From: Candidatus Methylomirabilota bacterium
GTDB lineage: Bacteria > Methylomirabilota > Methylomirabilia > Rokubacteriales > CSP1-6
Assembly: GCA_035315345.1 (NCBI GenBank)
Contig: DATFYA010000187.1
Coordinates: 3,436-67,435, forward strand
Length of the DNA: 64,000 bases
Direction of reading: 5' to 3'
Position numbers and translations under genes: made by a program. Shown here in pieces: positions 3,325 through 55,724 of this stretch. The notes under the pieces are model-generated. The model was not told the DNA's origin. It searched no databases and saw only the letters and a list, made by a program, of their open reading frames with translations. Within the stretch, counting starts at the first letter, position 1. Each line of letters starts with the position of its first letter.

Positions 3325-5126
3325 TGGCGACCGTCGAATACGAGACCCACGAGCACGACGTCCTGGTCATCGGCGCGGGCGGCGCCGGGCTGCGGGCGGC
3401 CATCGAGGCGGCGGCCCAGGGCGTGTCGGTCGGGCTGGTCTGCAAGTCGCTCCTCGGCAAGGCCCACACCGTCATGGCCGAGGGCGGGATCGCCGCCGCG
3501 ATGGGCAACGTGTGGCCGGAGGACAACTGGCAGGTCCACTTCCGCGACACCATGCGCGGCGGCAAGATGCTGAACAACTGGCGCATGGCCCAGCTTCACG
3601 CCCAGGAGAGCCCGGAGCGCGTGCTGGAGCTCGAGCGCTACGGCGCGCTCTTCGACCGGACCAAGGACGGGCTCATCTCGCAGCGCGACTTCGGCGGCCA
3701 CCGCTACGCGCGGCTGGCCCACGTGGGCGACCGCACCGGGCTCGAGATGATCCGCACGCTCCAGTACCACGCGATCCACCAGGCCATCGAGGTGTACATG
3801 GAGTGCAAGATCGAGCGCCTGCTCAAGGACGGCGACCGGGTGTGCGGGGCCTTCGGCTACTGGCGCAACACCGGCAAGTTCGTCCTCTTCAAGGCCAAGG
3901 CCATCGTGCTGGCCACCGGCGGCATCGGCAAGGCGTGGAAGTACACCTCGAACTCCTGGGAGTACAGCGGCGACGGCCACTCGCTCGCCTTCTGGGCGGG
4001 CGCGGACCTCATCGACATGGAGTTCGTGCAGTTCCACCCGACCGGGATGGTGTGGCCCCCCTCGGTGCGCGGCATCCTGGTGACCGAGGGCGTGCGCGGC
4101 GACGGCGGGACGCTGAAGAACACCGCGGGCGAGCGGTTCATGTTCAACTACATCCCCGAGTTCTTCAAGGCCGAGACCGCGGACAGCCAGGAGGAGGCCG
4201 ACCGCTGGTACCAGGACAAGAAGAACAACCGGCGGACCCCGGATCTCCTGCCGCGCGACGAGGTGGCCCGCGCCATCAATTCCGAGGTGAAGGCGGGCCG
4301 CGGGACCGTGCACGGCGGGGTGTTCCTCGACATCTGCACGCGGCGCGACGCCGATTACATCCGCAAGCGCCTGCCCTCGATGTACCACCAGTTCAAGGAG
4401 CTGGCCGGCGTCGACATCACCAAGGAGCCGATGGAGGTGGGGCCCACCATGCACTACGTCATGGGCGGGGTGCGGGTGGACGCCGACTCCACCGCGGCCA
4501 CCGTGCCCGGCCTCTTCGCGGCCGGCGAGGTGGCGGGCGGGCTCCACGGCAGCAACCGCCTCGGCGGCAACTCCCTCGGCGACCTGCTCGTGTTCGGGCG
4601 CCGGGCCGGGCTGCACGCCGCGCTCTACTGCAAGAACCTGGGCGGTCGGCTCACGGTGGACGGCGGTCAGGTGGAGTCCATCGCGCGCACCCTGCTCGAG
4701 CCCTTCACCCGCTCGGGCAGCGAGAATCCGTACACCATCCAGGCCGACCTGCAGGACACCATGCACAACCTGGTCGGCATCATCCGGGTCGAGGCCGAGC
4801 TCCAACAGGCGCTCGAGAAGCTCGCGGTGCTCAAGCAGCGCGCGGCCCGGGTGCACGTCGACGGCGGCCGCGTCTACAACCCGGGCTGGCACGTGGCGCT
4901 GGACCTGGCCTCGCTCCTGACCGTGTCGGAATGCTGCGCGCTCGCCGCGCTGGAGCGCAAGGAGAGCCGGGGCGGCCACACCCGCGAGGACCACCCGTAC
5001 ACCGACGACACCTGGGGGGCGGTCAATCTGGTCTCCCGGCAGCAGGGCGACCGGATCGATCTGCGGCGCGAGCCGCTGCCCCAGATGCCTCCCGAGCTGA
5101 AGGCCCTCGTCCAGGAGAGGCAGTGA
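3324..5126 (+). CDS. sdhA: succinate dehydrogenase/fumarate reductase flavoprotein subunit
   Basis: ATG 3324 within track ORF 2592..5126 (ATGA overlap). HDVLVIGAGGAGLRAA FAD fold, FHPTG, HYVMGG, RLGGNSL motifs. Confidence 0.93.
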   Translation: MATVEYETHEHDVLVIGAGGAGLRAAIEAAAQGVSVGLVCKSLLGKAHTVMAEGGIAAAMGNVWPEDNWQVHFRDTMRGGKMLNNWRMAQLHAQESPERVLELERYGALFDRTKDGLISQRDFGGHRYARLAHVGDRTGLEMIRTLQYHAIHQAIEVYMECKIERLLKDGDRVCGAFGYWRNTGKFVLFKAKAIVLATGGIGKAWKYTSNSWEYSGDGHSLAFWAGADLIDMEFVQFHPTGMVWPPSVRGILVTEGVRGDGGTLKNTAGERFMFNYIPEFFKAETADSQEEADRWYQDKKNNRRTPDLLPRDEVARAINSEVKAGRGTVHGGVFLDICTRRDADYIRKRLPSMYHQFKELAGVDITKEPMEVGPTMHYVMGGVRVDADSTAATVPGLFAAGEVAGGLHGSNRLGGNSLGDLLVFGRRAGLHAALYCKNLGGRLTVDGGQVESIARTLLEPFTRSGSENPYTIQADLQDTMHNLVGIIRVEAELQQALEKLAVLKQRAARVHVDGGRVYNPGWHVALDLASLLTVSECCALAALERKESRGGHTREDHPYTDDTWGAVNLVSRQQGDRIDLRREPLPQMPPELKALVQERQ

Positions 5127-17694: not shown

Positions 17695-18558
17695 ATGCAA
17701 CGACTGATGGGACTCGTGATGGCGCTGGCGCTGCTCGTGGCCGGGATGTCCCCGGCGCTGGCCCAGCAGAAGAGCACGCTGGACAAGATCGGGGAGACGG
17801 GCACGCTCACCATCGGCACCCGCACCGGCTCGCCGCCCTTCGGCTACGTGAACTCGAAGAACGAGTGGGTGGGCTTCTCGATCGACCTGGTGGAGGAATT
17901 GATCAAGCCCGCGCTGGAGAAGAAGCTCGGCAAGCCGATCAAGGTGGAGAAGAAGGAGAGCACCCCGCCCACCCGCATTCCGCTGATCTCCTCGGGCGCG
18001 GTGGACCTCATCGCCGAGACCATGACCGACACCCGGACCCGCCGCGACAGCGTGGACTTCTCGCTCACGTTCTTCGTGACCGGCGCGCAATTCCTGGTCA
18101 AGAAGGGGAGCCCGATCAAGGGCATCAAGAACATCGACGGCAAGCGCATCGCGGCCCAGCAGGGCTCGACCAACGCGCGCATCATCCGGGAGAAGGCGTC
18201 CAAGGCGGTGCTGCGCGAGTTCCCGGACCAGCCCGCCGCCTTCCAGGCGCTGGTGCAGGGGCAGGTGGACGCCTACACCAACGACGGCATCCAGCTCGCA
18301 GGGCTCAAGGCCAAGTCGCCGAACCCGGCGCAGTGGGAGATCGTCGGCGACATGTTCTCCTACGAGCCCTACGGGATGGCGCTGCGCAAGGGTGACTCCG
18401 ACTTCCGCAACGTCGTCAATGCCGGGCTGATGGAGGGCATCGAGTCGGGCAAGTTCTTCGAGATCTACGAGAAGTGGTTCGGGCCCAACGGCGAGCTGCC
18501 GTACCCGATGTCTCCGCAGGTGCGCTCGTTCATGCTGCTGCAGGTCGTCCCCAAGTAG
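17695..18558 (+). CDS. polar amino acid ABC transporter substrate-binding protein
   Basis: AAGGAGG RBS 7 nt upstream. Signal peptide MQRLMGLVMALALLVAGMSPALA. Family 3 SBP pattern (LTIGTRTGSPPFGY). Confidence 0.85.
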   Translation: MQRLMGLVMALALLVAGMSPALAQQKSTLDKIGETGTLTIGTRTGSPPFGYVNSKNEWVGFSIDLVEELIKPALEKKLGKPIKVEKKESTPPTRIPLISSGAVDLIAETMTDTRTRRDSVDFSLTFFVTGAQFLVKKGSPIKGIKNIDGKRIAAQQGSTNARIIREKASKAVLREFPDQPAAFQALVQGQVDAYTNDGIQLAGLKAKSPNPAQWEIVGDMFSYEPYGMALRKGDSDFRNVVNAGLMEGIESGKFFEIYEKWFGPNGELPYPMSPQVRSFMLLQVVPK

Positions 18559-18565
18559 TCTCGTT

Positions 18566-18662
18566 CCCTCTCCCCGGAGGGGAGAGGGCAGGGTGAGGGG
18601 CTGGCGCCGGCGTGAGTCCGCCCACCCTCACCCCGGCCCTCTCCCGGGAAGGGAGAGGGAGG
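18566..18662. repeat. REP-like element pair in inverted orientation (hairpin CCCTCTCCCC-N3-GGGGAGAGGG plus GGGTGAGGGG box)
   Basis: Left copy at 18566-18600 and an inverted copy at 18621-18659, in the spacer between the SBP and permease genes. The same motif family recurs at 62588-62680 and 63696-63835. Confidence 0.8.
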
Positions 18663-20139: not shown

Positions 20140-20997
20140 GTGCCCGCACCGGCGCGACCGGTGGTGGTGTGGATCCACGGCGGCTCGGTGGAGGACTCGT
20201 CGGTGATGGTGGCCGATCTCGAGCCGTTCGTCGGGCGCGTGCGCGCGCTCTTCCCGGATACGCGCGGCCACGGGCTCTCCTCGCGCTTCGAGCGCGTCGA
20301 GGACTACACCTACGCGCGCAAGGCCGAGGACCTGCTGGCGTGGCTGGACGTCCTCGGCGTGCGCGAGGCGGTCTGGGGCGGCGCCTCCATGGGCGGCGCG
20401 CTTTCGCTGTGGATCGCCGCGCACGCGCCGGAGCGCGCGCGGGCGGTGGTCTCGATCAGCGGACCACCCTACGAGCCCAGCGCCGAGGACAAGACGTGGT
20501 GGGCGCGCCACCGGCCGCTCGTCGAGGCCGGCCGCTTCGAGGACTACTTCGACGCCAACGTGCGCCTGCGCATGGGCGAGGCCGCGCTGGCCCGGCTCAA
20601 GGCGCGGCCGGATCGCTACGCCGAGCTGGCCGCCTCGCTGCGCCGCCACTCGGTGGCCTCGCTGCTGGCCCTGCTCGACGAGACGTACAGCCGCCAGGAG
20701 TGGCTCGCGGACTGCCGGCGCATTCGCTGCCCGGTGCAGGTGATCGCCGGCTCGGAGGACAGCTATCCGACCGTGGCCATGTCCCGCCGCGTCGCCGAGG
20801 CGATCCCCGGCGCGCGCTTCCACGTGGTCGAGGGCGGCCCCCACTTCCCCAACCGCACCCACCGTGCCGAAGTCCAGTCCGTCATCGCCACCTTCCTCGA
20901 CACGCTGGGGTCAGGTCTTGCATTACGACATTTTCTGGGACCTGGTGCGGCCGCCCTTCCCTCGAAATGTCGTAATGCAAGACCTGACCCCGGGTAG
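20140..20997 (+). CDS. alpha/beta hydrolase
   Basis: Track ORF (GTG start). Nucleophile elbow GASMGG and a distal GGPHFP His. In-frame codons from about 20065 (EVVLPSGVRLHW...) resemble the usual N-terminal strand, so the true start may lie upstream at a non-canonical codon. The last ~29 codons and the stop are encoded by the palindromic repeat at 20907-20991. Confidence 0.75.
   Translation: MPAPARPVVVWIHGGSVEDSSVMVADLEPFVGRVRALFPDTRGHGLSSRFERVEDYTYARKAEDLLAWLDVLGVREAVWGGASMGGALSLWIAAHAPERARAVVSISGPPYEPSAEDKTWWARHRPLVEAGRFEDYFDANVRLRMGEAALARLKARPDRYAELAASLRRHSVASLLALLDETYSRQEWLADCRRIRCPVQVIAGSEDSYPTVAMSRRVAEAIPGARFHVVEGGPHFPNRTHRAEVQSVIATFLDTLGSGLALRHFLGPGAAALPSKCRNARPDPG
20907..20991. repeat. 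85-bp perfect palindromic MITE/REP-like element
   Basis: GGGGTCAGGTCTTGCATTACGACATTT (20907-20933) is the exact reverse complement of 20965-20991, with a 31-nt loop between them. A related truncated copy lies at 54871-54911. Confidence 0.9.
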
Positions 20998-21008
20998 AAT
21001 CGGCCGCG

Positions 21009-21533
21009 ATGAACGAAGAGCAGCGGCGGATCCGGAGTTATCTCGTGACCCAGGCGGCCAAGCTGACGCCGGCCGCGATCGTGGAGAAGGTCCAGGCCGC
21101 GATGGCCGATCTGCGGGCCGCCGCAGTCGCGGTGCCGCCCGCGCGGTTCGCGGAGCGGCCGGAGCCCGCGGAGTGGAGCGGCAACGAGGTGATGGCCCAC
21201 GTCGTCGCCGCCGACGGTTACTTCGGCGGCGGGATCGGCCGGCTGCTGCGCGGTCAGCCGTCGGTGGGTCGACCGGAGGGCCGCGGCATCGAGGGCGCGC
21301 CGCTCCGTGCCGCCGAGGCCTGGTACGACCTGCTCGCCAGGCAGCGAGAAGACCTGTTCGCCGCGGTCCGGGCCGCCGATCCCGCCGCGGCGCCGGACCA
21401 GCGTATCGAGCATCCGATGTTCGGCCCGCTCACCTGGCGCGAGACGCTACTGTTCACCCGGCTGCACGACCTCGATCACGCCGGCCAGCTGCAGAAGATC
21501 GGCGCCGCCTTCGCGGCTCCGCGTCCGGTCTGA
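21009..21533 (+). CDS. DinB family (DinB_2-like) metal-dependent protein
   Basis: Track ORF. Four-helix-bundle-like pattern with His residues (EVMAHVV..., RLHDLDHAGQL). Confidence 0.7.
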   Translation: MNEEQRRIRSYLVTQAAKLTPAAIVEKVQAAMADLRAAAVAVPPARFAERPEPAEWSGNEVMAHVVAADGYFGGGIGRLLRGQPSVGRPEGRGIEGAPLRAAEAWYDLLARQREDLFAAVRAADPAAAPDQRIEHPMFGPLTWRETLLFTRLHDLDHAGQLQKIGAAFAAPRPV

Positions 21534-22618: not shown

Positions 22619-23800
22619 ATGGATCTGAACTACTCGCCGGACGAGCTGGCGTTCCGTGATGAGGTGCGCGGCTGGCTGCGCGCCAATCTCCCCGACGATC
22701 TTCGCCAGAAGATGGAGAGCTACCAGGAGCTGTCGAGGGAGGAGCTGCTGCGCTGGCACAAGATCCTGGCCAGGAAGGGCTGGGTTGCCCCCGACTGGCC
22801 GCCGGAGTGGGGCGGCACCGACTGGAACGTGGTGCAGCGCTACATCTTCGAGGAGGAGTGCGGCTACGCGGCGACGCCGATGATCGTGCCCTTCGGGGTC
22901 CGGATGTGCGCGCCGGTGCTGCTGCAGTTCGGCACCGAGGCCCAGAAGAAGCGGTTCCTGCCGCGCATCTACCACGGCGAGGACTTCTGGTGCCAGGGCT
23001 ACTCGGAGCCCGGCTCGGGCTCCGACCTCGCCTCGCTCAAGACGCGCGCGGTGCGGGACGGGGACCGCTACGTGGTGACGGGCCAGAAGATCTGGACCAC
23101 GCTGGCCCATCACGCGGACTGGATCTTCTGCCTCGTGCGCACCGATCCCAACACCGGCAAGCGCCAGGACGGCATCTCGTTCCTCCTGATCGACATGAAG
23201 ACGCCCGGCATCACGGTGCGGCCGATCGTGTTGATGGACGGCAGCAAGGAAGTCAACGAGGTCTTCTTCGACGACGTGGCCGTACCGGCGGAGAACCTCG
23301 TCCACGAGGAGGGGAAGGGCTGGACGGTGGCCAAGTACCTGCTGGGCTACGAGCGGATGGGCACCGGCCGCATCGGCGCCTCCAAGCGCGAGCTGGCCCG
23401 GCTCAAGGAGCTGGCCGGCGAGCAGATGAAGGACGGCCGCCCCCTCATCGAGGACGCGCGCTTCCGCGACCGGCTGACCCGGGTGGAGATCGAGCTGATG
23501 GCGCTGGAGATCACCAACCTGCGCTTCCTGGATCAGATGCGGCGCAGCGGCCGGCCCCCCGGTGCCGACGTGTCGATGCTCAAGATCAAGGGCACCGAGA
23601 TCCAGCAGTCCATCACCGAGCTGATGATGCAGGCCGCGGGGCCGCTCGCCCAGGCCTTCCGCCCCGTCGACGCGATGGACTTCGACCACTTCACCGCCCG
23701 CCTGGCGCCGCGGTACTGCAACCTGCGCAAGGCCACGATCTACGCGGGCTCCAACGAGATCCAGCGCAACATCATCGCGAAGGCCACCCTCGGCCTGTAG
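22619..23800 (+). CDS. acyl-CoA dehydrogenase
   Basis: Track ORF with GAGAGGAG RBS. FWCQGYSEPGSGSDLAS and C-terminal IYAGSNEIQRNIIA patterns. Confidence 0.9.
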   Translation: MDLNYSPDELAFRDEVRGWLRANLPDDLRQKMESYQELSREELLRWHKILARKGWVAPDWPPEWGGTDWNVVQRYIFEEECGYAATPMIVPFGVRMCAPVLLQFGTEAQKKRFLPRIYHGEDFWCQGYSEPGSGSDLASLKTRAVRDGDRYVVTGQKIWTTLAHHADWIFCLVRTDPNTGKRQDGISFLLIDMKTPGITVRPIVLMDGSKEVNEVFFDDVAVPAENLVHEEGKGWTVAKYLLGYERMGTGRIGASKRELARLKELAGEQMKDGRPLIEDARFRDRLTRVEIELMALEITNLRFLDQMRRSGRPPGADVSMLKIKGTEIQQSITELMMQAAGPLAQAFRPVDAMDFDHFTARLAPRYCNLRKATIYAGSNEIQRNIIAKATLGL

Positions 23801-23832
23801 AAGGCGACGCGGCGGGCGGGGGGGCGATGTCC

Positions 23833-23989
23833 GGCGGGATCGGGGGGTGGTCGTGGGGGGTCCTCTGACCACGTCCCGCGAGTCCGCGGCGACCGGAATT
23901 GGAGTTCCCAAGCTGGGCGCTGGAAGGGCGGTCTTCACCGGGCAGGAACGGGTCAGCCGGACCCCCCACGACCACCCCCCGACCCCGCC
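23833..23989. repeat. long inverted repeat / MITE-like palindromic element between the two ACAD genes
   Basis: GGGGGGTGGTCGTGGGGGGTCC at 23842-23863 is the exact reverse complement of 23959-23980. Pairing extends outward (23833-41 with 23981-89, 1 mismatch) and inward (TGACC/GGTCA), around a loop of about 80 nt. Confidence 0.8.
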
Positions 23990-24032
23990 CAGCGTCGCGG
24001 CACGCATGAACCGTCCTCGTCAGGAGTGAGCG

Positions 24033-54368: not shown

Positions 54369-54920
54369 ATGATCCGCGGCGTGCCCGGCCGCACCCCGCG
54401 CGTGCACCCGGAGGCCTACGTGGATCCGGCCGCCCAGGTGATCGGCGACGTGACGATCGACGCGGGGGCCAGCGTGTGGCCGTTCACGGTGCTCCGCGGC
54501 GACCAGGACAACTTCGTCAAGCTCGGCCGCAACTCCAACGTGCAGGACAACTCGGTGCTCCACGTCACCCCCGAGTTCCCGTGCATCGTCGGCGACAACG
54601 TGACGATCGGCCATCGGGCGGTCGTGCACGCGTGCACCGTCATGAGCAACTGCCGCATCGGCATCGGCGCGGTGGTGCTGACCGGGGCGGTCGTGGAGGA
54701 GGGCGCGCAGGTGGGCGCGGGCGCGCTGGTGCCGCCGGGCAAGGTGGTGCCGGCGGGCTGGCTCGTCATGGGCGTGCCGGCCAAGCCGGTGCGGAAGATG
54801 AGCCAGGACGAGCTCGACGACATCCTCCGCAACGCCGTCGAATATCTCGACCTCTGGCACCGCGACTATCGGGGTCAGGTCTTGCATTCCGACATTTCCG
54901 GGTCTGACCCCGGGAGCTGA
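54369..54920 (+). CDS. gamma-class carbonic anhydrase family (left-handed beta-helix) protein
   Basis: Track ORF. Hexapeptide-repeat pattern VIGDVTIDAGASVW...VLRGD...IGHRAVVHAC. The last ~15 codons are encoded by the repeat copy at 54871-54911. Confidence 0.85.
   Translation: MIRGVPGRTPRVHPEAYVDPAAQVIGDVTIDAGASVWPFTVLRGDQDNFVKLGRNSNVQDNSVLHVTPEFPCIVGDNVTIGHRAVVHACTVMSNCRIGIGAVVLTGAVVEEGAQVGAGALVPPGKVVPAGWLVMGVPAKPVRKMSQDELDDILRNAVEYLDLWHRDYRGQVLHSDISGSDPGS
54871..54911. repeat. truncated copy of the 85-bp palindromic element
   Basis: GGGGTCAGGTCTTGCATTCCGACATTT matches 26 of 27 positions of the arm at 20907. It is followed directly by CCGGGTCTGACCCC, which closes a short hairpin. Confidence 0.75.
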
Positions 54921-54935
54921 CGTCCTGACCCCCGA

Positions 54936-55724
54936 TCAGGGGACGTTCGGGGTGGCGCCGAGATCGCGGGCGGTCCGGAGATCGGCGGATTGATCGCGCA
55001 GGATCGTGGGGCTCATCACGATCTCCTCGATCACGGTGCGCGCGGGCAGGGTCACGCACAGCAGGATGGCGCGGGCCACGTCCTCGGCCTGCATCATGGT
55101 GGCCCGCGCCGTCTCGTCGGGCACCAGCGGCCGGTTGTCGAGGATCGGCGTGTCCACCTCGGCCGGCATGATGGTGGTGGCGCGGATGCCCTTCTCGCGC
55201 AGCACGGTGTGCACGTGGCCCATCAGGTTGCGGACGCCGGCCTTGGCCGCCCCGTACGGCGCGCCGCCGATGAGCCCGGGCTTCAGCGCGGCCAGCGAGC
55301 TGACCGTGATGATGGTCCCGCCGCCGCGCGCGATCATGCTGGGCAGGACCGCCTGGGTGAGCGCGTAGACGCCGGTCAGGTTCACGTTGACCACGGCGTC
55401 CCACTCGTCCTGGGGCACCCAGCGCACGTTGCGGGCCTTGCTGGAGTGGCCCGCGTTGTTCACCAGCACGTCCACCCGGCCGTACTGGGCCACCGTCCAC
55501 GCGGCGAGCGCGCGCGCCTCCGCAGGCCGCGCCACGTCGCACACGCGGGCCGCCGCGCGGCCGCCCGCCGCGGTGATCTCGCCGGCCACCGCCTCGATCG
55601 GCGCCTTGCGCCGGCCCGACACCACCACCAGCGCCCCCTCGGCCGCCAGCATCAGGGCCGCCGAGCGGCCGATGCCGGTGCCGCCACCCGTCATGATCGC
55701 CACCTGTCCGTCGAGCACTGCCAT
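54936..55724 (-). CDS. SDR family oxidoreductase
   Basis: Track ORF. MTGGGTGIGRS (TGxxxGxG), NNAG, YGAAKAG (YxxxK). Confidence 0.88.
   Translation of the reverse strand: MAVLDGQVAIMTGGGTGIGRSAALMLAAEGALVVVSGRRKAPIEAVAGEITAAGGRAAARVCDVARPAEARALAAWTVAQYGRVDVLVNNAGHSSKARNVRWVPQDEWDAVVNVNLTGVYALTQAVLPSMIARGGGTIITVSSLAALKPGLIGGAPYGAAKAGVRNLMGHVHTVLREKGIRATTIMPAEVDTPILDNRPLVPDETARATMMQAEDVARAILLCVTLPARTVIEEIVMSPTILRDQSADLRTARDLGATPNVP

What the first reader, a model, noticed from the sequence alone, without database searches (positions are those of the whole stretch)
20907..20991. 85-bp perfect palindromic element that donates the C-terminus and stop codon of a hydrolase gene
The 27-nt arms GGGGTCAGGTCTTGCATTACGACATTT and AAATGTCGTAATGCAAGACCTGACCCC are exact reverse complements around a 31-nt loop. 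The element lies on the 3' end of the alpha/beta hydrolase ORF. The last ~29 codons (...GSGLALRHFLGPGAAALPSKCRNARPDPG) and the TAG stop are therefore repeat-encoded rather than ancestral. No transposase is nearby, so it behaves like a non-autonomous MITE/REP. An element that repeatedly lands on gene ends and rewrites C-termini is worth characterising. A second case at 54871 is reported separately.
Basis: seen in the sequence. Interest (0 to 1): 0.55.

Follow-up and report, generated by a model that had tools for sequence, protein, structure and literature searches.

The report
Transposon-end hairpin fused to gene tail
The 85-bp palindrome is a non-autonomous copy (two inverted ends plus a short spacer) of a known, widespread single-strand-DNA transposon family (TIRYT/RAYT-like). 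It sat just behind a hydrolase gene's stop codon until a roughly 12-base deletion let the gene read through it, so this is a well-documented example of an ordinary kind of element, not a new one.

Summary
Window 20907-20991 is a perfect 27-nt inverted repeat around a 31-nt loop, and the hydrolase ORF reads through it.

The 27-nt arm is the terminal inverted repeat of a ~0.9-kb unit that encodes a Y1 (HUH) transposase with a C-terminal HTH. This is the published TIRYT/"TIRtron" class (TnpA-Y1 subclass 2.1), whose repeats start GGGGWSAS. The window copy is a transposase-less "TIR dimer", analogous to a REPIN. No target-site duplications are seen, so it is not a classical DDE-type MITE.

In about 20 syntenic Rokubacteria loci the element sits 0-3 nt after an intact stop codon (usually TAG), and the protein ends ...G(L/I/V)*. 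Other orthologues have empty sites, deletion footprints or solo arms. In this window a ~12-nt deletion removed the last two codons, the stop and the spacer. As a result 28 element-encoded codons were appended. The TAG now used lies outside the palindrome, in a conserved TAGAGT-like box upstream of the next gene.

At least three other independent ORF-element fusions exist at this locus. The arms are more conserved than synonymous sites and the two arms change together, while the loops drift. This is a new member of a known kind, of modest interest.

The parts
20907..20933 (+). Left arm: a copy of the TIRYT terminal inverted repeat, starting GGGGTCAG (matches GGGGWSAS)
   Evidence: Exact reverse complement of 20965-20991. 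The same 24-mer flanks Y1-HTH transposase genes in L007, L008 and L037.
20934..20964 (+). 31-nt loop or spacer; a fast-drifting part of the copied unit
   Evidence: Loops at the orthologous locus are 59% identical (shuffled 49%), against 91-92% for the arms. Loops of non-orthologous copies keep weak homology and a CGGCC.G.TGAGTCGC core.
20965..20991 (+). Right arm (inverted copy of the left arm)
   Evidence: The two arms vary together across orthologues.
20140..20997 (+). Alpha/beta-hydrolase ORF (PcaD-like, 285 aa). Residues 257-284 are element-encoded, and residue 285 and the stop come from the downstream flank.
   Evidence: Orthologues end ...G(L/I/V)* before the element.
20995..21000 (+). 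TAGAAT box. It supplies the TAG now used as the stop and aligns with the conserved TAGAGT of orthologues, a -10-like box 10-13 nt upstream of the DinB ATG.
   Evidence: Alignment of junctions. Its role as a promoter is inferred only; the consensus scan found no promoter here.
21009..21533 (+). Downstream DinB_2-family gene; syntenic neighbour in all close orthologous loci
54871..54911 (+). Second, internally deleted copy: left arm 54871-54897 with one mismatch, then CC, then right-end remnant 54900-54911. It forms the tail (GQVLHSDISGSDP, followed by GS from the flank) of a 183-aa ORF 54369-54920 whose sequence looks like a gamma-carbonic-anhydrase/hexapeptide-repeat protein (not scanned against a family library).

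Best explanation
The palindrome is a non-autonomous "TIR dimer": two inverted copies of the ~27-nt terminal repeat of a TIRYT-type transposon with a ~31-nt spacer between them. It is the TIRYT equivalent of a REPIN. The autonomous form is a ~0.9-kb unit in which the same repeats flank a gene for a Y1 (HUH) tyrosine transposase with a C-terminal helix-turn-helix.

Inferred by analogy with IS200/IS605 and RAYT enzymes: the hairpin forms in single-stranded DNA, is recognised and cut by the transposase supplied in trans, and is pasted without target-site duplication. Insertion is preferentially a few nucleotides 3' of a TAG or TAA.

Shown: one such copy entered the 2-3-nt position behind the TAG stop of the hydrolase gene in an ancestor of this Rokubacteria clade. 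It has since been inherited vertically, with repeated decay into footprints, solo arms and losses. In the lineage of this window a ~12-nt deletion removed the last two codons, the stop and the spacer. Translation now runs in frame through 28 element codons to a TAG in the -10-like box of the next gene.

The arms are kept paired and conserved after insertion, by selection on the hairpin or by conversion between or among arms. The loop drifts.
For: Family and autonomous form:
- The arm 24-mer occurs in at least 120 stretches of the genome collection, in many phyla. Paired copies about 80 bp apart recur.
- In L008 the arms flank a 284-aa gene at 3778-4634 (one search lists the ORF from an upstream TTG, 3747-4634, 295 aa), and the gene's stop lies inside the right arm.
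- The protein scores Pfam Y1_Tnp 37.4 bits (cutoff 23) and NCBIfam REP_Tyr_transpos 75.8 bits (cutoff 80), with HTH hits at residues 243-281. The HUH motif (NHYHIVV) and the tyrosine motif (SRYVVLNPV) are visible in the sequence.
- The family returned at least 8000 hits, the search's scoring cap. About a fifth of the top 120 end ...CKT* or ...QDLTP, which is the arm read in two frames.
- Literature: TIRYT/TIRtron repeats share GGGGWSAS and occur as singles, dimers and clusters (PMC3733652). Subclass 2.1 carries the C-terminal HTH (PMC6006769).

Orthologous hydrolase-DinB junctions:
- Intact elements lie after intact stops. Empty sites, footprints (GGGGACCCC, GGGGCTGACCCC), solo arms and three other fusion types are also present.

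Other properties:
- No target-site duplications.
- Arms 91-92% identical between genomes, against 77% at synonymous sites and 59% in the loop. 17 of 22 elements pair perfectly. Five pairs carry compensatory changes, and 0 of 500 shuffles reach the observed score.
- TAG lies within 15 nt of the arm in 25 of 65 unique GC-rich flanks (background 5%). TGA is not enriched.
Against: - No TIRYT gene was found in the window or in any fetched Rokubacteria locus. Mobilisation in this host is therefore unproven, and the family may be fossil there.
- Non-orthologous copies have very diverged loops, so there is no sign of recent transposition in Rokubacteria.
- The empty sites could be ancestral or could result from excision; this was not resolved.
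- The TAG preference is weaker once baseline stop usage is considered (TAG about 40%, TGA about 52% in a crude and biased ORF set). It could reflect selection and not targeting.
- Cleavage, binding and the single-strand mechanism are inferred from related enzymes and were not tested for this family.
Confidence: 0.82

Rival explanations
1. Host-domesticated hairpin. Whatever its origin, the element is now kept by the host for a function of its own at the 3' end of TAG-terminated genes. Possible roles are mRNA 3'-end protection, termination, or a translation-coupled effect like those reported for E. coli REPs close to stop codons. This is compatible with the transposon origin and differs only in what maintains the element.
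For: - At the orthologous locus, which was sampled without reference to the arm sequence, the arms are more conserved (91-92%) than synonymous sites (77%) and than the coding sequence overall (87%), while the loop is near random.
- Five compensatory pairs are seen, plus a G:T intermediate (L141) next to a compensated state (L148).
- The position 0-3 nt after the stop recurs.
- The predicted RNA hairpin is very stable.
Against: - The element has been lost, truncated or reduced to footprints in many close relatives, including the closest one (L126, 96% identity), with no sign of compensation.
- There is no U-tract and no terminator-like match.
- In this window the hairpin lies inside the translated ORF.
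- Hairpin-templated repair or conversion between arms could give the same covariation without any function.
- In this window TAG genes do not have stronger downstream hairpins than TGA genes (p = 0.21, n = 34).
Confidence: 0.25
2. One reading: the element inserted directly into the 3' end of the hydrolase gene, displacing the ancestral C-terminus and bringing its own stop codon.
For: The ORF does run through the element, and the tail is absent from most orthologues.
Against: - About 20 syntenic orthologues have the same element at the same site, downstream of an intact stop. Their loops are homologous, so it is one old insertion.
- The window lacks exactly the last two codons, the stop and the spacer.
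- The TAG in use lies outside the palindrome and aligns with the conserved TAGAGT box.
Confidence: 0.08
3. A classical MITE derived from a DDE transposon, an integron attC site, a CRISPR-like repeat, or a structured non-coding RNA gene.
For: It has inverted repeat ends, small size and many copies (MITE-like). It forms a hairpin directly after a stop codon with a variable centre (attC-like). Some loci hold three same-strand copies 50-76 nt apart.
Against: - No target-site duplications.
- The arms are the ends of a Y1/HUH element, not a DDE element.
- No GTTRRRY/RYYYAAC attC boxes are seen in the sequence, and the neighbourhood is conserved synteny, not a cassette array.
- The same-strand arrays are irregular partial duplications, not repeat-spacer arrays.
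- No Rfam family reaches threshold. A permissive scan finds only generic miRNA hairpins 40-180 bits below their cutoffs.
Confidence: 0.03

Closest known systems
TIRtrons / TIRYTs and their dispersed TIR repeats (Di Nocera et al. 2013, PMC3733652); TnpA-Y1 subclass 2.1 (Quentin et al. 2018, PMC6006769)
   Same: A RAYT-like Y1/HUH protein with a C-terminal HTH. The gene is flanked by long terminal inverted repeats that begin GGGGWSAS (here GGGGTCAG) and that can overlap the gene's 3' end. The repeats are also scattered through genomes as singles, dimers and clusters, and the taxonomic distribution is patchy.
   Different: - This particular repeat sequence was not found in the text of the held literature.
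- It occurs with an identical 24-mer in MAGs labelled as many different phyla.
- Rokubacteria carry many dimers but no TIRYT gene in the DNA sampled.
- The published survey found TIR families in only a limited number of genomes.
REPINs / REP sequences and RAYTs (Bertels & Rainey 2011, PMC3116915; Nunvar, Ton-Hoang, Messing for TnpA-REP)
   Same: Two inverted copies of a transposase-recognised repeat around a less conserved spacer, forming a hairpin. The elements are non-autonomous, mostly lie downstream of genes, persist at orthologous sites and are inherited vertically. GTAG REPs are reported to often supply or abut TAG stops (PMC3733652).
   Different: - The arms are 27-34 nt of perfect stem, much longer than typical REP stems (my own knowledge).
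- There is no fixed GTAG tag. The TAG sits at a variable 0-7 nt and belongs to the host gene.
- The associated protein scores just under the NCBIfam RAYT cutoff (75.8 vs 80) and carries an extra HTH.
Rickettsia palindromic elements (RPEs) and intragenic REPs
   Same: Palindromic repeats that end up translated in frame as part of host proteins without destroying them. This is known from the literature on RPEs (my own knowledge) and from the intragenic REPs listed in PMC3733652.
   Different: Here the coding capture came from a secondary junction deletion at the extreme C-terminus, not from an in-frame insertion inside the gene.
IS200/IS605 elements and their palindrome-associated miniature derivatives
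   Same: A Y1/HUH transposase, recognition of DNA hairpins, no target-site duplication, and insertion next to a short specific sequence (mechanism known for IS608 and ISDra2; my own knowledge and PMC6006769).
   Different: IS200/IS605 ends are short, imperfect, subterminal hairpins that differ at the two ends. They are not a long true terminal inverted repeat. No TnpB partner is seen here.

Membership tests
TIRYT / TIRtron (TnpA-Y1 subclass 2.1) - autonomous partner | Y1/HUH transposase core homologous to RAYTs | tested here: met
   The L008 protein scores Pfam Y1_Tnp 37.4 bits (cutoff 23) and NCBIfam REP_Tyr_transpos 75.8 bits (cutoff 80, just below). The HUH motif NHYHIVV and the tyrosine motif SRYVVLNPV are in the sequence.
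TIRYT / TIRtron (TnpA-Y1 subclass 2.1) - autonomous partner | C-terminal HTH domain (Bac_DnaA_C, HTH_23 or HTH_28 type) | tested here: met
   HTH_28, HTH_23 and MarR hits at residues 243-281, each below its own cutoff. Precomputed PF13384 and PF13518 are listed for many family members.
TIRYT / TIRtron (TnpA-Y1 subclass 2.1) - autonomous partner | Gene flanked by terminal inverted repeats that begin with GGGGWSAS | tested here: met
   L008 has its left repeat at 3731-3757 and right repeat at 4613-4638. L007 and L037 have GGGGTCAGG... directly upstream of the ATG. The motif definition comes from PMC3733652 and PMC6006769.
TIR repeat dimer (REPIN-like non-autonomous derivative) - the window element | Arms identical or near-identical to the terminal repeats of the transposase-bearing unit | tested here: met
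   The same 24-mer, with one free position, is present in the window arms and next to the TIRYT genes in L007 and L037. The right-hand repeat of L008 also carries it; L008's left-hand repeat is a diverged copy.
TIR repeat dimer (REPIN-like non-autonomous derivative) - the window element | Dispersed multi-copy family copied as a unit (arms plus spacer) | tested here: met
   81 unique full elements were collected. Spacer length (measured between 26-nt arms) peaks at 31-35 nt, and spacers keep weak but significant homology: 11% of pairs reach 55% identity, against 1% when shuffled.
TIR repeat dimer (REPIN-like non-autonomous derivative) - the window element | A cognate transposase in the same genome that mobilises it | not testable with these tools
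   None in the 64-kb window or in about 100 Rokubacteria-type loci. Whole genomes could not be scanned.
Classical MITE (DDE-transposon derivative) | Target-site duplications flanking the element | tested here: not met
   The distribution of abutting direct repeats is the same as for permuted flanks across 81 elements.
GTAG-type REP / canonical RAYT system | Conserved GTAG (or CGTC) tetranucleotide at a fixed position at one end of the palindrome | tested here: not met
   The TAG lies 0-7 nt outside the arm at a variable offset, and in the examples inspected it is the in-frame stop of the neighbouring gene. Many copies have none.
Intrinsic terminator | GC-rich hairpin followed by a U-tract | tested here: not met
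   No terminator-like site at 20700-21200. The right arm is followed by GGGTAGAA.
Any Rfam RNA family | Score at or above the family's gathering threshold | tested here: not met
   No hits at gathering thresholds in the whole window. The permissive scan returns only generic hairpin (miRNA) models at 13-39 bits, against cutoffs of 32-200.

The most novel reading that the evidence does not exclude
After insertion, the arms are held by purifying selection stronger than that on neighbouring synonymous sites, with compensatory changes. The element is positioned 0-3 nt behind TAG or TAA stops but not TGA stops. If this reflects function and not targeting plus arm-to-arm conversion, the hairpin would be a domesticated 3'-end module, spread across phyla, that is specifically coupled to RF1-read stop codons, for example by controlling termination, read-through or mRNA decay. 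A second possibility concerns the "stutter" arrays in Proteobacteria, where the junction plus GGGGTCA is duplicated. These may mark the in vivo cleavage site of an uncharacterised Y1 enzyme.
Probability: 0.15. Interest if true: 0.6.

Novelty: new member of a known kind. Interest (0 to 1): 0.3.

Why it matters
It shows, step by step, how a selfish palindromic repeat can come to encode a protein tail. The sequence of events is insertion just behind a stop codon, long vertical persistence, then small junction deletions. These deletions fused the ORF to the repeat at least four separate times at one locus, in three reading frames.

It also gives a practical annotation warning. Peptides such as GSGLALRHF, GQVLHYDI, CRNARPDP and MQDLTP in metagenomic proteins are repeat-derived.

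It extends the little-studied TIRYT class to Rokubacteria and to MAGs labelled as many different phyla. It also provides an unbiased orthologous data set in which the repeat arms are more conserved than synonymous sites. That makes testable the question of whether such repeats are maintained by the host or by the element.

Tried and rejected
- **Rfam:** no family at gathering thresholds in the whole window. The permissive scan of the element found only generic miRNA-type hairpins.
- **Literature search for the arm sequence:** no paper.
- **Transposase in the host:** tblastn and a family HMM against the six-frame translation of the window and all loci found no Y1 transposase in the window or in Rokubacteria loci. 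A search for arm pairs 150-3500 bp apart found only proteobacterial TIRtrons and a 238-259-bp long variant.
- **Vectors:** blastn of the L008 TIRtron against plasmids gave no match. The arm pattern gave no match in viral contigs. No vector for spread between phyla was identified.
- **Target-site duplications:** none.
- **Promoter and terminator consensus scan at the locus:** nothing found, so the promoter reading of TTGCGG-N17-TAGAGT remains an inference.
- **General link between TAG stops and downstream hairpins in the window:** not significant (p = 0.21).
- **CRISPR-like reading of the same-strand triplets in L048 and L052:** rejected, because they are irregular partial duplications.
- **attC reading:** rejected on sequence and on conserved synteny.
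- **Apparent archaeal hosts (Nitrosotalea, Bathyarchaeia):** judged to be bin mislabels, because those contigs carry the Rokubacteria hydrolase operon or a close hydrolase orthologue.
- **Not done:** an orthologue analysis of the 54871 gene, which is reported separately.

Full report
**1. Observation.** Window 20907-20933 and 20965-20991 are exact reverse complements (27 nt) around 31 nt. With three mismatches allowed the arms extend to 34 nt. The arm occurs three times in the window, against none expected in 100 shuffles. The region folds at -68.4 kcal/mol (z = -10.7). ORF 20140-20997 is an alpha/beta hydrolase (Abhydrolase_1, PcaD-like) whose family models end at about residue 255 of 285. 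Codons 257-284 lie inside the palindrome. Codon 285 and the TAG stop (20995-20997) lie outside it. The copy at 54871 is truncated: a left arm and a 12-nt right-end remnant. It forms the tail of a 183-aa ORF that looks like a gamma-carbonic-anhydrase/hexapeptide-repeat protein, in a different frame.

**2. What the arm is.** An exact-match scan with the arm 24-mer (one free position) returned at least 120 stretches from the one-genome-per-species collection. They come from MAGs labelled Rokubacteria/Methylomirabilota, several Betaproteobacteria (including the complete Methylophilus medardicus chromosome), Magnetococcales, Nitrospirae, Dehalococcoidia, Caldisericota, Aminicenantes, Gaiellales and others. 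Many are +/- pairs about 80 bp apart.

In Proteobacteria a single arm lies just upstream of an ORF starting MARPLRIEL..GLYHVTSRG. In L008 (Tepidiphilus) two arms in inverted orientation flank a 284-aa gene (3778-4634; one search lists the ORF from an upstream TTG, 3747-4634, 295 aa), and the gene's last codons (EMSQCKT) and stop lie inside the right arm. The protein is a Y1/HUH transposase: Pfam Y1_Tnp 37.4 bits (cutoff 23) and NCBIfam REP-associated tyrosine transposase 75.8 bits (cutoff 80). It has a C-terminal HTH.

The family returned at least 8000 hits, the search's scoring cap, and sources often annotate members as RayT. About a fifth of the top 120 members end ...CKT* or ...QDLTP, which is the arm read in two frames.

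The literature names this arrangement. TIRYTs/TIRtrons are RAYT-like genes flanked by long terminal inverted repeats that share GGGGWSAS, and their repeats also occur dispersed as singles, dimers and clusters (PMC3733652). They fall in TnpA-Y1 subclass 2.1, which has a C-terminal HTH (PMC6006769). The arm here starts GGGGTCAG, an exact fit. The window element is therefore a transposase-less TIR dimer, functionally analogous to a REPIN.

No transposase is in the window or in any fetched Rokubacteria locus.

**3. History at the hydrolase locus.** Orthologues at 77-92% identity mostly end ...FLDT(I/L)G(L/I/V)*. Six loci found through the protein (L001 and L121-L125) and 80 more from metagenomes (L126-L205) were chosen without reference to the repeat. 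The set includes about 55 syntenic loci with the order ABC transporter, hydrolase, DinB, luciferase-like oxidoreductase, acyl-CoA dehydrogenase. The states seen among them are:
- **Intact element after an intact stop.** The element lies 0-3 nt after a TAG, TAA or TGA stop. Examples are L127 (...GGC CTC TAG gtt GGGGTCAGG...), L129, L138, L140-142, L145, L148, L149, L152 and L160.
- **Empty sites.** L128, L144, L162 and L164.
- **Footprints.** L131 (GGGGACCCC), L155 (GGGGCTGACCCC), L151, L139 and L134. In L143 the TGA stop comes from the residual cTGAccc of the right arm.
- **Solo left arms.** L132, L154 and L156-161.
- **ORF-element fusions in other frames.** ...EGVRS*/...DGVRS* (stop created by the TTGAAT arm variant), FWGQVLNYDI... 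with two different tails and stops (L150, L176) and FWGQVLKYDILIRL*.

The closest relative (L126, 96% identity) has lost the native gene end and the element in one deletion and ends ...ASVAG*. More distant, non-syntenic orthologues have no element.

Loops at this locus are homologous among many genomes (TCGA.CGGCCAG.TGAGCCG.AAGCAC..GG), so this is one old insertion and not repeated hits. The window lacks exactly GGC CTC TAG plus the 2-3-nt spacer, a deletion of about 12 nt. That puts 84 nt (28 codons) of the element in frame.

The TAG now used aligns with the TAG of a conserved GATAGAGTC box, which is present in about 20 of the 22 distinct intact junctions, 10-13 nt before the DinB ATG. In most orthologues it forms TTGCGG-N17-TAGAGT. 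Reading that as a promoter is my inference, because the consensus scan found nothing in the window. The stop is not repeat-encoded, and the fusion was secondary.

**4. Constraint on the arms.** Among 22 distinct intact elements at this locus, pairwise identity is:
- 91-92% for each arm;
- 59% for the loop (49% when shuffled);
- 68% for the spacer to the ATG;
- 77% for third codon positions and 87% for all positions of the adjacent coding sequence.

In 17 of the 22 elements the arms pair perfectly. Variation is confined to mid-arm positions 14-21 and occurs on both arms together (TTGCATTAC, TTACATTCC, TTGAATTAC, TTGAAATAC, TTGAACTAC). On the 11 distinct arm pairs, 98.6% of cells are paired, five pairs show changes on both sides, and no shuffle out of 500 reaches the observed covariation. 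L141 (G:T) and L148 (A:T) show an intermediate state and a compensated state.

Across 81 unique elements from all loci the same pattern holds. The outer GGGGTCAGGTCTT box and the inner CGACA box are nearly invariant.

The arms are therefore maintained after insertion. The data do not distinguish between selection for a hairpin (in DNA or RNA), selection for protein recognition, and conversion between arms or among copies.

**5. Insertion properties.** There are no target-site duplications. This fits Y1/HUH single-strand transposition and argues against a DDE-type MITE.

In GC-rich loci 25 of 65 unique arm flanks have a TAG within 15 nt, mostly 0-3 nt from the arm (5% background). TAA is also enriched (5 of 65 against 0.7%). 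TGA is not (8 of 65 against 14%). Baseline stop usage in a crude, biased ORF set is TAG 40%, TGA 52% and TAA 7%. The preference for TAG over TGA is therefore real but moderate. I read it as a target preference, by analogy with the short target sequences of IS200/IS605 and with GTAG-tagged REPs, combined with tolerance for insertions just outside genes. This is an inference.

**6. Mechanism and rivals.**
- **Best explanation (0.82).** A TIRYT-derived TIR dimer, inherited vertically at this site and fused to the hydrolase by a junction deletion.
- **Host-maintained function of the hairpin (0.25).** This is compatible with the same origin. The constraint data support it. Frequent loss in close relatives and the lack of terminator features weigh against it.
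- **Direct insertion into the gene end (0.08).** Disfavoured by the orthologous loci.
- **DDE MITE, attC, CRISPR-like repeat or ncRNA (0.03).** Disfavoured by the tests above.

**7. Novelty.** The kind is known: TIRYT/TIRtron repeats, REPIN-like dimers, and palindromic repeats captured into coding regions. The new points are this particular repeat family, its presence in Rokubacteria and in MAGs labelled as many different phyla with an identical 24-mer, the reconstructed series of states at one locus, and the quantitative evidence for post-insertion constraint. Interest is modest (0.3).

**8. Unresolved.**
- Whether Rokubacteria encode a cognate TIRYT.
- Whether the empty sites are ancestral.
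- What maintains the arms.
- How the family moves between phyla (no plasmid or viral hits).
- What produces the junction stutter arrays in Proteobacteria.

Noticed in passing
L025, L032, L015, L065, L086, L109, L116, L120, L016, L022, L050 (low-GC, mostly proteobacterial loci); also L052 and L080 (Rhodoferax): "Stutter" arrays. The 9-13 nt just upstream of an arm, plus a variable 5' part of the arm (often exactly GGGGTCA, sometimes 14-30 nt), is tandemly duplicated one or more times before the full arm. This occurs at 18 of 67 arms in low-GC loci, against 0.7% of random positions. In GC-rich loci it occurs at 4 of 96 arms, all in the two Rhodoferax loci. The recurrent break after GGGGTCA may mark a transposase cleavage site.
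   Followed up: partly
L121 / DATIWG010000035.1, also L024, L029, L058, L079; protein P0097: Contigs labelled as archaeal MAGs look mislabelled. The one labelled Candidatus Nitrosotalea sp. SMAG_U15217 carries the same Rokubacteria operon, with a hydrolase 91% identical to the window's and the same synteny. P0097, labelled Bathyarchaeia archaeon, is a 79%-identical hydrolase orthologue. These bins appear mislabelled or contaminated, so the archaeal occurrence of the repeat is probably spurious.
   Followed up: partly
window 18565-18660: A different palindromic repeat (TCCCTCTCCCCGGAGGGGAGAGGG...GGGTGAGGGG and its complement; 42-nt arms, 71% complementary). It starts 6 nt after the TAG stop (18556-18558) of the substrate-binding-protein gene, and its loop contains GTGAGTCCGC. 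A similar CCCTC/GAGGG-rich repeat is inserted in L135 between the hydrolase stop and the TIR dimer.
   Followed up: no
window 23824-23998: A third inverted repeat (40-nt arms, 88% complementary, 95 nt apart). It starts 23 nt after the TAG stop (23798-23800) of the acyl-CoA dehydrogenase gene, and its loop contains GCGAGTCCGCGG. So three unrelated palindromes in this window follow TAG stops and share a GAGTC(C/G)GC loop core with the TIR-dimer loops. A window-wide comparison of hairpin strength after TAG and after TGA was not significant (p = 0.21).
   Followed up: partly
L126 (Ga0081455_10000592), junction after match end 1953: The closest relative of the window (96% protein identity) has no element. 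Its hydrolase ends ...TFLASVAG* and reads into the GTTGCAGGG/TAGAGTCC region. This is a separate deletion that removed the native C-terminus, the stop and the whole element, so the extreme C-terminus of this enzyme tolerates replacement.
   Followed up: partly
orthologous loci L122-L160; window 20992-21008: A conserved TTGCGG-N17-TAGAGT motif lies 10-13 nt upstream of the DinB ATG in most orthologues. It may be a promoter giving a nearly leaderless mRNA. In the window, L125, L145, L175 and L194 the TTGCGG part is deleted and the right arm abuts the TAGAGT/TAGAAT box.
   Followed up: no
L046 6220-6457; L081 412-670; probably L013: A longer arm-bounded variant (238-259 bp) in GC-rich loci. L013 and L081 share the internal sequence (...caccggggtggcccctgccgg...). 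It may be a composite or a second non-autonomous subfamily.
   Followed up: no
L007 (Magnetococcales) 24-604; L074; L037: TIRYT genes are themselves disrupted or decayed. In L007 the ORF runs into another arm copy after about residue 170 (...RVLPWGQVLHYDI). In L037 (Methylophilus medardicus chromosome) the gene is broken into frameshifted fragments; its first ORF ends after 144 codons.
   Followed up: partly
window 54921-54945: A short GC-rich hairpin (CGTCCTGACCCCCGATCAGGGGACG) lies between the convergent 183-aa ORF (54369-54920, the probable gamma-carbonic-anhydrase-like gene) and the 262-aa ORF on the opposite strand that looks like a short-chain dehydrogenase (SDR), immediately after the truncated element copy.
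   Followed up: no
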